From positions 62,001-126,000 of the forward strand of contig PBSN01000007.1 of the NCBI GenBank assembly GCA_002726235.1: 64,000 nucleotides of DNA, written 5' to 3'. A program made the position numbers. Positions 49,201 to 52,200 of the stretch are shown here, piece by piece. Source of the DNA: Nitrospiraceae bacterium. GTDB taxonomy: Bacteria > Nitrospirota > Nitrospiria > Nitrospirales > UBA2166. The first letter of the stretch is position 1. The number at the start of each line of letters is the position of its first letter.

Positions 49201-52200
49201 AAAATGTGAGGGTTCTGGTCTTCGCAAAAGGGGAAAAAGAGGCGGAGGCTCGCGATGCTGGCGCAGACATTGTTGGTGCAGAGGATTTAGTCGAGAAAAT
49301 CCAAGGAGGATGGTTGGAATTTGATCAAGCGATCGCGACGCCAAATCTTATGGGCATGGTCGGAAAATTGGGGAAAGTTCTTGGTCCCCGTGGTTTGATG
49401 CCAAATCCAAAAACTGGAACTGTAACGCTTGATCTTGCCAAGGTGATTGGTGAAATTCGGAAAGGCCGTGCTGAATTTAAAACGGACAAGACCGGAAACA
49501 TACACGTCACTGTTGGTAAGGTGTCCCTCCCCCGAGGCAGTCTCTGTGAAAATGCTAACGCGATACTTGAATCAATTGTGAAAGCGAAACCGGCATCAAG
49601 CAAAGGGCGTTATCTTAGGGGGGTTTCGCTTTCCTCTACGATGGGGCCGGGGGTTGCACTTGATCCGGTCGCGGTTACGAAACGGCATACGTAACCATAT
49701 TTTCCCCGCCTCTGTTGGAGAAGTGACAGAATGAAGAAAGAGATGAAGACGCAGGTTGTTGCAGGTTTGAATGAGAAGTTTTCTCGGGCTCAGGTGGCAA
49801 TTCTGACCGAGTTTAGCGGAGTGCCGGTGGGGGAGATGACTGAGCTTCGTAGGCTTTTTCGCGAGGCAAAGGCTGAGCTGAAAGTAGTGAAAAATCGTCT
49901 TGCCATACGGGCAGCCGAGGATACACCACTTGCCATTGCGACGGATCGTTTTCGTGGCTCTCTTGCGGTTGCTCTTGGCTATGATGACCCCATCGTTCCT
50001 GTGAAAATTCTGAACGACTTCATTACGAAAGAACGTCGTCGTCAACGATTCACCATGCGTGCTGGGGTCATCGAAGGACAGATTCTTGAGGCGAAGGCGT
50101 TAAATGATTTGGCAAATTTGCCATCTCGCCACCAGTTGCTGGGAATGTTTCTCTCAGCGATGCAGGGATCGATTCAGGGGTTTGTCAGTGTGTTGTCGGG
50201 ACCGGCACGAAGCTTAGTATATATGATCAGTGGGCTCATTGAACAAAAGAAAGGAATGGGAGAGATGGCTGATGTGAAAGAAACAAGCACATTAACAGAT
50301 GACGATATTCTTGGCGCGGTTGAGCAGATGTCTGTCCTTCGGTTGTCCGAATTGGTAAAAAAAATTGAGGAACGTTTTGGGGTCACTGCGGCGATTCCCA
50401 TGGCAGCTCCTGCCGCAGGAGGGGCAGCCGCTCCTGCAGAGGCTGAGGAGAAAACCTCATTTGATGTGGTGTTGAAGAGTGTAGGTGACAAGAAAATTCA
50501 GGTTATCAAGGCGGTGCGAGAGATTACGAGCCTAGGCTTGAAGGAAGCAAAAGATCTTGTAGAAGGGGCACCGAAACCTGTGAAGTCAGGTGCCGCAAAA
50601 GATGAGGCGGAGACGATAAAGAAAAAGCTAGAAGAGCATGGTGCAACGGTTGAGATTCAGTAACTGTTGTTGGTCGCTGCGTATGAAAGTGGGGGGAGGC
50701 TTCACACGATGACGTCCAGCCATANTGCCATCAAACGCACGGACCTTTCCAAGATTCGTACCTGTCTTGAGGTTTCATCCCTTGTTGAGATGCAAACGCG
50801 TTCCTATGCGGACTTTTTGCAATTGAATGTGCCTCCAGAGAAAAAGGAGGATCGGGGGCTTCAAGCAGCACTAACGAGTGTCTTTCCCATCGCCGATTAT
50901 AATCGCTCGGCTACGCTTGAGTTTGTAAATTACTCTCTCGGGGACTCGAAATATAGCGCTCGGGATTGTATCGAGTACGGCATGACCTATGCCGCTTCAC
51001 TGCGGATTCGTATCAGGCTCATCGTTCTTCGTAAAATGGAACAAGAGGAGCCGCAGGAAGTTCGTGATGTACAGGAAGTTCGTGATGTAAAAGAACAGGA
51101 AATATATGTTGGTGAATTGCCGTTGATGACGGAACGAGGCACGTTCATTATCAATGGAACCGAACGCGTCATCGTCAGTCAGCTCCACCGGTCACCAGGT
51201 GTGACGTTCATGCATGACAAAGGGAAAACATATGCGAGCGGAAAGGTTTTGTTTTCCGCCAGAATCATCCCATATCGTGGCTCTTGGCTTGATTTCGAGT
51301 TCGACACCAGAGATGTGTTGTACGTGAGGATTGACCGAAGAAGAAAAATGCCTGCAACGGTTTTGCTGAAAGCCTTTGGCTACTCCACGGATGAAATTCT
51401 CAAGATGTACTATTCGGTAGAAGAAATCACGGTCGTAAAAGGGAAGCTCTTTCGGAAGTTGGATGTGGAAATACATGCTGGTATCCGCTCCCCAGCCGAT
51501 GTTCGTGACAAGCGCTCGGATGAGCTCATTGTGCGTGAAGGCCAAAAGCTGACGCGATCTAGTATTCAAAAGATGATTTCTGCGGGGGTAAAAACGGTTC
51601 CCATTGACCCTGAAGCGTTGGTGGGGCGGACTACCTTGACTGAGATTGCGAATACGGCGAGTAAAGAGATTCTCGTCGAGAAAAACACCGTGATTTTGGA
51701 GGCCGCACTCGAGGTGTTGCGGAGTGGCAAGGTAAATGGTTTTAAAGTGATCTATGTTGCGCCCGCTGCCGTGCCGGTTATACAGATTACCTTGGCTGCG
51801 GAGAAGTCCAATTCCACAGATGAAGCCATGGTTGAAGTGTATAAACGGCTTAGGCCAGGCGAGACTCCAACCGTCGAGACTTCCCGCGCGCTCTTTGAGA
51901 ACACTTTTTTTAACTCGAAGCGTTATGATCTTTCGCCTGTTGGACGGTTAAAAATTAATAATCGGCTGGGGCTTGATGTTCCTCTCGGTGACCGGACCCT
52001 CATGGCTAAGGATATTGCCGAAGTTGTCCGCTATCTTGTTTCGTTGAATGAGGGCAAAGGGGATGTCGATGATATCGATCATCTCGGAAACCGGCGAGTG
52101 AGAGCTGTGGGAGAATTATTGGAAAATCAGTTCAGGCTCGGTTTAGTGTGGATGGAGCGGAATGTCAGAGAGCGGATGACCCTGTCGGATTTGGAAATGG

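What a model noticed while it worked through the whole genome (the two positions that open the first line are those of the whole stretch)
49731..50663. Ribosomal stalk genes rplJ and rplL fused into one reading frame with a conserved internal start
The genes for ribosomal stalk proteins uL10 and bL12 form one 310-codon open frame with no stop between them, and a Shine-Dalgarno-like AAAGGAG plus an invariant ATG sit in frame exactly where bL12 begins. I read this as a stalk in which one bL12 copy is made covalently attached to uL10 while the remaining free bL12 copies come from internal initiation inside the same ORF; the arrangement is shared by nearly every sampled member of the order Nitrospirales (Nitrospira included) and by no other sampled Nitrospirota. 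New would be a natural covalent uL10-bL12 stalk (a bacterial analogue of P0, which carries its own P1/P2-like tail) and a nested-gene way to set the 1:4-6 stoichiometry.
Evidence so far: g00555 has Pfam Ribosomal_L10 (aa 1-97), Ribosomal_L12_N (191-236) and Ribosomal_L12 (244-310) in one product. search_genomes: one uninterrupted frame without stop in 30 of 31 Nitrospirales, incl. all 5 UBA2166 and closed genomes; in a phylum sample G000 and 46 of 49 other Nitrospirales match over query 1-309 with 'stops none' (one split over two contigs, one partial, one no match), whereas every full-length match outside the order carries 1-4 stops or uL10 and bL12 match as separate places. Alignment of 34 Nitrospirales loci: junction ..KK-G-x-G-x-M.. 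with AAAGGRG 8-14 nt upstream of an ATG invariant in 34 of 34. In two genomes of sister orders (G477, G513) uL10 ends ..AVAKKR(M/A)AEAG-stop, [...]
(Added by a program. Inside this text positions count along the whole contig: contig position 62,001 is position 1 of the stretch shown here. "Call 12" and the like, gene names such as g00115 and contig names such as C1 are that model's own, and its searches are not shown. The text may have been shortened before it was handed on; [...] marks where a part breaks off. The agent that wrote the report below was given it as the finding of a first reader that could run no searches.)

Follow-up and report, generated by a model that had tools for sequence, protein, structure and literature searches.

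The report
Fused ribosomal stalk genes rplJ–rplL
In this marine Nitrospirales bacterium and its whole order, the genes for ribosomal stalk proteins uL10 and bL12 are joined into one reading frame that keeps a working-looking internal start for bL12, so the ribosome probably carries one bL12 copy permanently tied to uL10, which has not been described before.

Summary
Window 49731..50663 (+) is one 310-codon frame with uL10 (aa 1-175) joined to bL12 (aa 179-310). It is the only rplJ/rplL in the genome.

- **Distribution.** All 153 Nitrospirales genomes with a match (159 searched) lack a stop between the two genes. Of 168 other Nitrospirota with a match, one isolated genome (G285) is fused.
- **Internal start.** ATG is kept in 70 of 70 loci covering all 23 genera sampled. 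A Shine-Dalgarno motif sits upstream in two different codon phases that encode different amino acids, so it is selected as RNA. It pairs more strongly than rplJ's own motif in 63 of 70 loci and lies in the most open RNA stretch.
- **Selection.** Roughly 7-64 stop-creating changes are expected in the linker if re-splitting were neutral; none is seen.
- **Stalk size.** Helix alpha8 of uL10 aligns without gaps to the three-dimer type of Thermotoga and Thermus.

Best reading (confidence 0.7): a uL10-bL12 fusion is made from the 5' start, and free bL12 from internal initiation. No protein-level evidence exists, so cleavage is not excluded. Similar fusions occur sporadically in other phyla. No paper found describes this. 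I rate it a new variant of a known kind.

The parts
49717..49720 (+). Shine-Dalgarno-like GGAG of the rplJ (5') start, 10 nt before the ATG at 49731
   Evidence: Read from the sequence. Duplex energy with a generic anti-SD is -6.4 kcal/mol, weaker than at the internal site.
49731..50663 (+). Single ORF rplJ-rplL (310 codons plus TAA) encoding a uL10-bL12 fusion
   Evidence: ORF; family models; only copy in the genome.
49731..50255 (+). uL10 part (aa 1-175): rRNA-binding domain plus C-terminal helix alpha8
   Evidence: Pfam PF00466 at aa 1-97. NCBIfam L10 equivalog at aa 5-173. AF2 pLDDT block means are 75-87 for aa 1-130.
50127..50249 (+). Helix alpha8 of uL10 (aa 133-173), the bL12-dimer binding helix, of three-dimer length
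   Evidence: Aligns without gaps to T. maritima L10 (1zav_A 125-178 of 180) and T. thermophilus L10 (4v63_BJ 114-171 of 173). Predicted helices 133-151 and 159-173.
50250..50264 (+). Junction/linker codons K174-G-M-G-E178, which also carry the internal Shine-Dalgarno motifs AAAGGA (50250-50255) and GGGAG (50258-50262)
   Evidence: Duplex energy with the anti-SD is -7.3 kcal/mol. Synonymous codon entropy is low at K172-G175. This is the most unpaired stretch of the mRNA, averaged over 70 loci.
50265..50267 (+). In-frame ATG (Met179), the inferred start codon of free bL12
   Evidence: ATG in 70 of 70 order loci. The next residue is A, S, P, T or V in 70 of 70.
50265..50663 (+). bL12 part (aa 179-310 plus stop): N-tail, dimerisation domain, hinge and C-terminal factor-binding domain
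   Evidence: NCBIfam L12 equivalog at aa 186-309. Pfam L12_N at 191-236 and L12 at 244-310.
50301..50438 (+). bL12 N-terminal dimerisation / uL10-binding domain (aa 191-236)
   Evidence: PF16320. Predicted helices 190-198 and 202-216.
50460..50660 (+). bL12 C-terminal domain (aa 244-310)
   Evidence: PF00542, 107 bits.

Best explanation
rplJ and rplL have merged into one gene by loss of the rplJ stop codon and of most of the spacer.

- **Two products (inferred).** Ribosomes that start at 49731 read through and make a roughly 33 kDa uL10-bL12 chain. Ribosomes that start at the conserved internal Shine-Dalgarno/ATG (50265) make ordinary free bL12, in excess.
- **Stalk assembly (inferred).** In the stalk, uL10's helix alpha8 (three-dimer length) is loaded with bL12 dimers. 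The tethered bL12, on a linker of about 16 residues, most likely pairs with a free bL12 on the last alpha8 site. That would give one covalent and five free copies.
- **Maintenance.** The covalent link is kept by selection. It works like the archaeal/eukaryotic P0, which carries its own factor-recruiting tail. The nested start sets the uL10:bL12 ratio.
- **Shown versus inferred.** Shown: the frame, its conservation, the nucleotide-level conservation of the SD and ATG, and the absence of any other bL12 gene. Inferred: both protein products, their ratio, cis docking, and absence of cleavage.
For: 1. **One open frame, no other copy.**
2. **No stop anywhere in the order.** 0 of 153 matching genomes of the order have a stop, and 147 are full length, including single-contig genomes that each give exactly one match.
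3. **Independent DNA agrees.** Contigs from two other studies bridge the junction with 0 differences.
4. **Internal ATG.** Present in 70 of 70 loci that cover all 23 genera and 4 families sampled.
5. **SD conserved as RNA, not as protein.**
   - A strong SD motif is present in 62 of 70 loci and a 4-mer in 68 of 70. The anti-SD duplex energy is -6.6 to -11.8 kcal/mol in all 70.
   - The motif lies in two codon phases: AAA GGA GAA (K-G-E) in 58 loci and AAG GAG GAN (K-E-E/D) in 10. Two further loci have AAA GAG GAG (K-E-E).
   - Synonymous codon entropy at K172-G175 is 0.23-0.77, against a mean of 1.40.
   - In this genome only 165 of 9396 internal ATGs (1.8%) have a strong SD upstream.
6. **The internal site looks the better start.** Its SD is stronger than rplJ's own in 63 of 70 loci. 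Local folding energy is -8.0 against -11.5 kcal/mol. Unpaired probability is highest at -30..-10 (0.60-0.71, against 0.41 overall).
7. **Residue after the Met.** It is A, S, P, T or V in 70 of 70, as expected for a true, processed N-terminus.
8. **Plausible origin.** All 20 outgroup loci have a stop and a spacer of 0-100 nt. One (L077) has a 15-nt in-frame spacer, aaggaggaaaaagtt, so a single stop-loss mutation would produce a junction like the K-E-E type.
9. **Re-splitting is selected against.** The 8 codons before the ATG offer on average 5.6 single-base routes to a stop. Tree length is 12 (all sites) to 34 (third positions) substitutions per site. That gives roughly 7-64 expected stop gains, and none is seen (the range is my arithmetic).
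10. **Alpha8 is of the three-dimer type.** It aligns without gaps to the Thermotoga and Thermus L10. Copy number follows the length of the L10 C-terminal domain (PMC4592705, passages read).
11. **Longer tether.** The bL12 tail before helix 1 is 7-9 residues in 70 of 70 order loci. It is 2-4 in 12 of the 14 outgroups my pattern could score, out of 20.
Against: - There is no protein-level evidence of any kind. Neither the fused chain nor free bL12 has been observed.
- The AF2 monomer model is unreliable beyond about aa 140 (pLDDT below 50 for 148-192 and 216-253), so cis docking is untested.
- In the window's own genus the SD is weaker: the strong-motif regex is not met in 5 of 5 loci, although duplex energy is -6.6 to -7.4 kcal/mol.
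- The organism's own 16S 3' end was not recovered, so a generic anti-SD was used.
- The 70 loci are relatives, not independent samples.
- The stop-gain expectation rests on rough, possibly saturated branch lengths and on an assumed mutation spectrum.
- 5 of the 21 fused clusters from other lineages show no Met at the junction, so a fusion can perhaps exist without an ATG start, or may use GTG/TTG.
Confidence: 0.7

Rival explanations
1. Polyprotein precursor. The fused chain is made but is cut at the exposed linker by a cellular protease, so mature ribosomes carry ordinary separate uL10 and bL12. The internal start still supplies the excess bL12.
For: The linker is predicted to be coil (aa 174-189) and is rich in Gly and Glu. 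No protein-level data exclude cleavage.
Against: The linker residues are not conserved between the two junction types (K-G-E-G-E/D against K-E-E/D-S/P), so there is no conserved cleavage motif. If the link were only transient, regaining a stop should be close to neutral, yet none is seen in 153 genomes against about 7-64 expected. A role for the link during assembly only could reconcile this.
Confidence: 0.17
2. No internal initiation. The ATG and the purine-rich stretch are leftovers of the ancestral rplL start. All bL12 comes from the full-length chain, either as a single tethered copy per ribosome or after cleavage, with excess uL10 degraded.
For: One bL12 dimer suffices for viability in E. 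coli, at a lower growth rate (PMC4592705, passages read), and Nitrospirales are slow growers (recalled). 5 of 21 fused clusters elsewhere lack a junction Met.
Against: The ATG is invariant in 70 of 70 loci. The SD is kept in two codon phases, with reduced synonymous variation and high accessibility. Alpha8 keeps its full three-dimer length. bL12 binds alpha8 as dimers (PMC4592705), and a lone tethered copy cannot form a dimer.
Confidence: 0.05
3. Recoding. Ribosomes coming from rplJ shift frame or terminate near the junction, so that a separate uL10 is made despite the open frame.
For: The junction is A-rich (for example GAC AAA AAG AAA GGA in many loci), and out-of-frame stops exist nearby in the window (+10 and -25 nt).
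Against: The first stops in the +1 and -1 frames lie at variable places across the 70 loci (-28 to +422 nt), as expected by chance. No shared slippery heptamer followed by a stop exists. No conserved RNA structure was found at the junction. No Rfam cis-regulatory family matched.
Confidence: 0.03
4. Neutral frozen accident. The fusion protein and the internal start both exist as in the best explanation, but the tether has no function of its own and persists only by chance or hitch-hiking.
For: Fusions of the same kind arise repeatedly and sporadically elsewhere: G285 alone among the 36 matching genomes (37 searched) of its order, and 21 mostly small clusters in other lineages. This shows the event is easy and tolerated.
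Against: No reversion in 153 genomes despite many one-step routes to a stop. The bL12 N-tail is uniformly lengthened in the order, which suggests adaptation to the tether.
Confidence: 0.15

Closest known systems
Canonical bacterial stalk operon rplJ-rplL and the L10(L12)6 complex of Thermotoga maritima and Thermus thermophilus (PDB 1zav, 4v63)
   Same: The two protein families, the gene order (rplK-rplA-rplJ-rplL-rpoB) and the three-dimer length of alpha8 are the same. bL12 has its own SD and ATG.
   Different: There is no stop codon and no spacer between the genes, so one bL12 copy is made as part of the uL10 chain. None of the 46 PDB sequences matched at E<=1e-5 covers both halves. The bL12 N-tail is 4-5 residues longer than in most outgroups.
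Archaeal/eukaryotic stalk base P0 (uL10), which carries its own C-terminal factor-binding tail besides binding P1 or P1/P2 dimers (recalled)
   Same: A uL10 that is covalently equipped with one copy of the factor-recruiting element, while the remaining copies bind as dimers to its C-terminal helices. It works alike.
   Different: The appended part here is a whole bL12 (dimerisation domain, hinge and globular C-terminal domain), not a P1/P2-like tail. There is no homology between the two, and the origin is an independent recent gene fusion. It is an analogue, not a member.
In-frame nested genes with internal initiation, for example infB IF2 isoforms and phage lambda C/Nu3 (recalled, not checked here)
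   Same: One ORF, with a long product from the 5' start and a shorter C-terminal product from a conserved internal SD and start. In lambda C/Nu3 the free short form is made in excess and co-assembles with the fused form, which is the same logic for setting a ratio.
   Different: No ribosomal stalk example was found in the searches run here. Both products remain unproven for this ORF.
Sporadic uL10-bL12 fusions in other lineages: clusters with members named Armatimonadota, Chloroflexota/Dehalococcoidia, Candidatus Bipolaricaulia and Candidatus Fervidibacterota, plus the same-class genome G285
   Same: The architecture is L10 + L12_N + L12 in one chain of 297-332 aa. 16 of 21 keep a Met after a Gly-rich, SD-coded stretch at the junction (counted by eye). 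G285 keeps caggagggg..ATG.
   Different: Their identity to the query is 33-45%. Their 90%-identity clusters are small (1-16 members), and G285 is alone among the 36 matching genomes (37 searched) of its order. In Nitrospirales the fusion is fixed across 4 families and every genus sampled (23).

Membership tests
uL10 (Ribosomal_L10, PF00466; NCBIfam NF000955) | N-terminal rRNA-binding domain matches the family model above the curated cut-off | tested here: met
   PF00466 scores 82.9 bits against a cut-off of 22.8. NF000955 scores 155.9 bits against 85, over aa 5-173.
uL10 (Ribosomal_L10, PF00466; NCBIfam NF000955) | C-terminal helix alpha8 that binds bL12 N-terminal-domain dimers | tested here: met
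   At the sequence level only: gap-free alignment to 1zav_A 125-178 and 4v63_BJ 114-171. Binding itself was not tested.
uL10 (Ribosomal_L10, PF00466; NCBIfam NF000955) | Separate polypeptide that ends just after alpha8 | tested here: not met
   The frame runs on into bL12 without a stop, in all 153 matching genomes of the order.
bL12 (PF16320 + PF00542; TIGR00855) | Dimerisation domain, flexible hinge and C-terminal domain | tested here: met
   PF16320 scores 59.4 bits and PF00542 scores 107 bits. TIGR00855 scores 154.1 bits against a cut-off of 84.4. The hinge, aa 217-243, is predicted coil.
bL12 (PF16320 + PF00542; TIGR00855) | Own ribosome-binding site and start codon | tested here: met
   ATG in 70 of 70 loci, and SD duplex energy of -6.6 kcal/mol or stronger in 70 of 70. 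This is sequence evidence only.
bL12 (PF16320 + PF00542; TIGR00855) | Present as free protein of about 13 kDa in 4-8 copies per ribosome | not testable with these tools
   Needs mass spectrometry of ribosomes.
In-frame nested gene (two products by internal initiation) | Conserved in-frame internal start with SD, under nucleotide-level selection | tested here: met
In-frame nested gene (two products by internal initiation) | Both protein products demonstrated | not testable with these tools
   No proteomic or initiation-profiling data were available here.
P0-type stalk base (archaeal/eukaryotic uL10 with its own tail) | uL10 covalently carries a factor-recruiting element | tested here: met
   Met at the ORF level. 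Persistence in the mature protein is not shown.
P0-type stalk base (archaeal/eukaryotic uL10 with its own tail) | The appended element and helices are homologous to the P1/P2 system | tested here: not met
   Only bacterial L10 and L12 models pass their cut-offs. The archaeal-type L10 models score 23-28 bits against cut-offs of 331-381. It is an analogue only.

The most novel reading that the evidence does not exclude
Mature Nitrospirales ribosomes carry an uncleaved uL10-bL12 chain. This would be a bacterial counterpart of P0, with one factor-recruiting arm permanently attached. The tether has become functionally required, because the order has never re-split the genes. The other five bL12 copies come from a nested internal start in the same ORF, which sets the stalk stoichiometry. 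A bolder sub-case is that the tethered copy is an extra, seventh arm, as in the archaeal P0(P1)6 heptamer.
Probability: 0.5. Interest if true: 0.75.

Novelty: new variant of a known kind. Interest (0 to 1): 0.62.

Why it matters
- The stalk recruits EF-Tu, EF-G, IF2 and RF3. Its 1:4-8 uL10:bL12 make-up is a textbook feature of bacterial ribosomes, always described as non-covalent.
- A whole order would instead build the stalk on a covalent uL10-bL12 chain. That order includes Nitrospira, whose members are the main nitrite oxidisers and the complete ammonia oxidisers (recalled).
- This would be a natural experiment on three points: why multiple bL12 copies are needed, how the stalk assembles, and how bacteria converge on the P0 design of archaea and eukaryotes.
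- It also gives a clean case of a nested gene that sets subunit stoichiometry.
- In practice, annotation pipelines now name these proteins either 'L10' or 'L7/L12'. Marker-gene sets that expect two separate proteins may mis-score this order.
- It is directly testable by mass spectrometry on ribosomes of cultured Nitrospira.

Tried and rejected
- **Complex prediction.** The job sent was fused aa 147-240 plus three copies of aa 179-240. It returned no verdict: score 0.13 against a mark of 0.32, with the partner's own fold uncertain. This says nothing for or against binding. The intended design of one fused plus five free copies could therefore not be run.
- **AlphaFold2 of the whole chain** with a 52-row alignment. 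Mean pLDDT was 60.6, and the model is unreliable beyond about aa 140. It gives no information on cis docking.
- **RNA evidence**. The two metatranscriptome runs gave contigs that cover only 49555-50031 and 49657-49982, not the junction. There is no RNA-level statement to make.
- **A short X3 contig.** One 82-nt X3 contig carries an extra T behind 50389 and a loose end at 50376. The longer X3 contig over the same place has no such difference. I treat the short one as another strain or a chimera.
- **Rfam scan of 45500-51500**. It found only four tRNAs and no L10 leader or other cis-regulatory family.
- **RNAalifold on 31 junctions**. No conserved structure.
- **Frameshift search**. No shared slippery site or conserved out-of-frame stop.
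- **Sigma-70 promoter scan of 48900-50900**. 0 sites against 1.3 expected, so there is no sign of an internal promoter.
- **The search for related loci with the Chloroflexota-type fused protein P0126**. It returned 80 ordinary loci from many phyla. I could recognise bL12 in 76 of them, and 0 of those are fused. The genome encoding P0126 itself was not found.
- **Order genomes without a match.**
  - G092, G337, G339 (single contig) and G345 also lack any match to rplA.
  - None of the four has a match to the bL12 C-terminal-domain family above its cut-off.
  - The whole neighbourhood is missing from the held data, so these four genomes are uninformative.
  - G037 (80% complete) and G067 (82% complete) also gave no match and were not re-checked.
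- **16S 3' end.** The single motif hit in the genome does not look like a 16S terminus, so the organism's own anti-SD is unverified.
- **Literature.**
  - Seven full-text searches found no paper that describes a uL10-bL12 or rplJ-rplL fusion.
  - Passages of PMC3578206 and PMC6375957 turned out to be irrelevant.
  - Davydov et al. 2013 (Nat Commun, a survey of L10 alpha8 lengths) is not held, so I could not check whether it mentions fusions.
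Full report
**Observation.** The window holds one open frame, 49731..50663 (+), of 310 codons ending in TAA.
- Pfam finds Ribosomal_L10 (aa 1-97), Ribosomal_L12_N (191-236) and Ribosomal_L12 (244-310), all above their cut-offs.
- NCBIfam finds the bacterial L10 equivalog over aa 5-173 and the L12 equivalog over aa 186-309.
- The gene sits in the usual neighbourhood: tuf, a tRNA, secE, nusG, rplK, rplA, this ORF, rpoB.
- The genome (1.87 Mb, 27 contigs, 90.65% complete) gives this one match and no separate rplJ or rplL.

**Not an artefact.**
- Contigs from two other metagenome studies bridge the junction with no difference: X2 (566 nt, 49997-50562) and X3 (356 nt, 50064-50419).
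- The index lists 15 runs from 9 studies that hold at least half of the sampled words. One of these may be the source.
- Single-contig genomes of the order show the same uninterrupted frame and exactly one match each.

**Distribution in the order.**
- In an order sample of 121 genomes, 118 match and none has a stop. Of these, 112 span query 1/2-309.
- The other six are cut by contig ends. I checked this for G005 and G031 and read it from the coordinates for G034, G055, G061 and G080.
- A class sample adds 38 further order genomes. Of these, 35 match, all full length and without a stop.
- Together: 159 order genomes searched, 153 with a match, 0 with a stop, 147 full length.
- Four of the six non-matching genomes also lack rplA, and none of the four has a bL12 C-terminal-domain match above the family cut-off, so the region is simply not in the held data. 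The other two (G037, G067; 80-82% complete) were not re-checked.

**Distribution outside the order.**
- 0 of 102 matching genomes of other orders in the phylum sample have a stop-free full-length match.
- In the class sample 1 of 68 does. That one, G285, has a different junction (..NKSNAQEGKEEA-M-GKLSQEE..). It is the only fused genome among the 36 matching genomes (37 searched) of its own order, so it is an isolated and probably independent event.
- In a broad sample of 80 loci from many phyla, none of the 76 in which I could recognise bL12 is fused.
- An exhaustive search of 1.84 billion cluster representatives lists 21 further full-length fused clusters among its best 150 hits (297-332 aa, 33-45% identity). 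Their 90%-identity clusters have 1-16 members. Named members are Armatimonadota, Chloroflexota/Dehalococcoidia, Candidatus Bipolaricaulia and Candidatus Fervidibacterota. Two of them were confirmed by Pfam.
- The event therefore recurs. Among the lineages I could examine by genome (the phylum Nitrospirota), it is fixed across a whole clade only in Nitrospirales.

**The junction and the internal start.** I took 70 loci that cover all 23 genera and 4 families sampled.
- All 70 have ATG at the bL12 start.
- The residue after it is A (30), S (27), P (10), T (2) or V (1), as expected for a real N-terminus that loses its Met.
- Upstream lies a Shine-Dalgarno motif. A strong form is present in 62 of 70 and a 4-mer in 68 of 70. 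Duplex energy with a generic anti-SD is -6.6 to -11.8 kcal/mol in all 70.
- The key point is that the motif is conserved as nucleotides, not as amino acids:
  - 58 loci read AAA GGA GAA GGN GAN ATG (K-G-E-G-E/D-M).
  - Two loci read AAA GAG GAG GG. (K-E-E-G).
  - Ten loci of family f4 read AAG GAG GAN NNN ATG (K-E-E/D-x-M), with the same GGAG in another codon phase.
- Synonymous codon entropy falls to 0.23-0.77 at K172-G175, against a mean of 1.40 over 213 columns. Other Gly codons nearby score 1.7-1.95.
- In the window's own genome only 165 of 9396 internal ATGs in long ORFs (1.8%) have such a strong motif. The window's own junction does not meet that regex. Its motifs are AAAGGA and GGGAG, with a duplex energy of -7.3 kcal/mol.
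- The internal site pairs more strongly than rplJ's own SD in 63 of 70 loci. It sits in less structure: mean -8.0 against -11.5 kcal/mol for 70-nt windows.
- The stretch -30..-10 is the most unpaired part of a 250-nt window: 0.60-0.71 against 0.41.

**Origin.**
- All 20 outgroup loci have a stop after uL10 and a spacer of 0-100 nt that contains the rplL SD. In 11 of them rplL is in frame with rplJ.
- One locus (L077) reads ..KNKKTQ TAA aaggaggaaaaagtt ATG. A single change in its stop codon would give a junction of the K-E-E type.
- The linker of the fused proteins is therefore the translated former SD region.

**Is the tether kept by selection?**
- The eight codons before the ATG offer on average 5.6 single-base routes to a stop (range 2-8).
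- Total tree length of the 70 sequences is 12 substitutions per site over all positions and 34 at third positions.
- I allowed for only about three routes that would not damage the SD, and for a transversion penalty. By my arithmetic that gives about 7 expected stop gains at the low end and about 64 at the high end. None is seen in 153 genomes.
- Stops right at the SD are the normal state in outgroups, including spacers of 0, 14 and 15 nt, so a stop there is not harmful in itself.
- I conclude that the covalent link, at least during synthesis or assembly, is under purifying selection. This estimate is rough: branch lengths may be saturated, and the sequences are related.

**Likely structure (inference).**
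- Helix alpha8 (aa 133-173) aligns without gaps to T. maritima L10 (1zav_A 125-178 of 180) and to T. thermophilus L10 (4v63_BJ 114-171 of 173).
- Copy number follows the length of the L10 C-terminal domain: two dimers in E. coli and three in T. thermophilus (PMC4592705, passages read). Three dimers, that is six N-terminal domains, are therefore expected here.
- uL10 ends at about aa 175, and helix 1 of bL12 starts at about aa 190. That leaves a coil of about 16 residues.
- The bL12 tail before helix 1 is 7-9 residues in 70 of 70 order loci. It is 2-4 in 12 of the 14 outgroups my pattern could score, out of 20. This is consistent with a lengthened tether.
- The N-terminal-domain dimer is described as built from antiparallel helices. 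One of its two N-termini should then lie near the C-terminal end of alpha8, so cis docking on the last site seems sterically easy. This is reasoning, not a result.
- The AF2 monomer model is confident only for aa 1-130.

**Rivals.**
- Cleavage of the chain after synthesis cannot be excluded without protein data. However, there is no conserved linker peptide, and a purely transient link does not explain the lack of reversion.
- A fusion without internal initiation is contradicted by the SD and ATG conservation, and by the full-length alpha8.
- Recoding is unsupported. Out-of-frame stops are scattered (-28 to +422 nt), there is no shared slippery site, no conserved RNA structure and no Rfam element.
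- An internal promoter is not indicated.

**Comparison and novelty.**
- By membership this is uL10 plus bL12. It fails only the feature 'separate polypeptides'.
- It works like P0 of archaea and eukaryotes, a uL10 with its own factor-recruiting arm, but it is not homologous in the appended part (recalled knowledge; archaeal-type L10 models score far below their cut-offs).
- It also works like in-frame nested genes in which a free C-terminal product is made in excess of the fused form (recalled examples: infB, lambda C/Nu3).
- Of the 46 PDB sequences matched at E<=1e-5, none covers both halves.
- Seven full-text searches found no description. Davydov et al. 2013 could not be read.
- Sources name these proteins 'L7/L12' or 'L10'.
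- I rate it a new variant of a known kind. It is real and clade-wide, but it awaits protein-level proof.

Noticed in passing
Proteins P0122, P0123, P0132, P0136: These proteins, 593-1056 aa long, carry 6-7 tandem copies of the bL12 C-terminal domain (PF00542). They have no uL10 and no L12_N domain. One also has LRV/HEAT repeats. Their taxa and function are unknown.
   Followed up: partly
L175 (G285:C122), fused ORF with junction ATG at open-frame residue 251: A same-class genome outside the order also has rplJ-rplL in one frame. Its linker is different and longer, and its bL12 N-tail is short. It is the only fused genome among the 36 matching genomes (37 searched) of its order, so it is probably a recent independent fusion. 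A MAG sequence error is also possible.
   Followed up: yes
window 50664-50708: Only 45 nt separate the rplL stop from the likely rpoB start (ATG at 50709, preceded by GGGGGGAGG). The ORF listing extends the frame to a TTG at 50667. No terminator-like site lies in this gap. The long attenuator-bearing spacer known from E. coli (recalled) is absent.
   Followed up: no
window 50256-50258: In the window's genus a second in-frame ATG (Met176) lies 9 nt upstream of the conserved one, directly after AAAGGA, in 3 of the 5 genus loci (L001, L003, L004). It has no spacing to an SD, so it is probably not used.
   Followed up: partly
L009 (G040:C115): This genome is labelled family f4. Its junction is of the K-K-G-E-G-E type seen in families f1-f3, unlike the other ten f4 loci. 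The contig may be mis-binned, or the genus may be heterogeneous.
   Followed up: no
Genomes G339 (single contig), G092, G337, G345: These order genomes give no match to rplA and none above the cut-off to the bL12 C-terminal-domain family, although they are listed as 95-99% complete. The whole ribosomal-protein neighbourhood seems to be missing from the held copies.
   Followed up: partly
window around 48330 (nusG) and 50736 (rpoB): Single ambiguous bases (N) give an X in the nusG and rpoB translations. None lies in the rplJ-rplL frame.
   Followed up: no
window 45588-45932 and 47633-47705: Three tRNA genes lie upstream of tuf, and one lies between tuf and secE. This is the usual layout of the cluster.
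   Followed up: no
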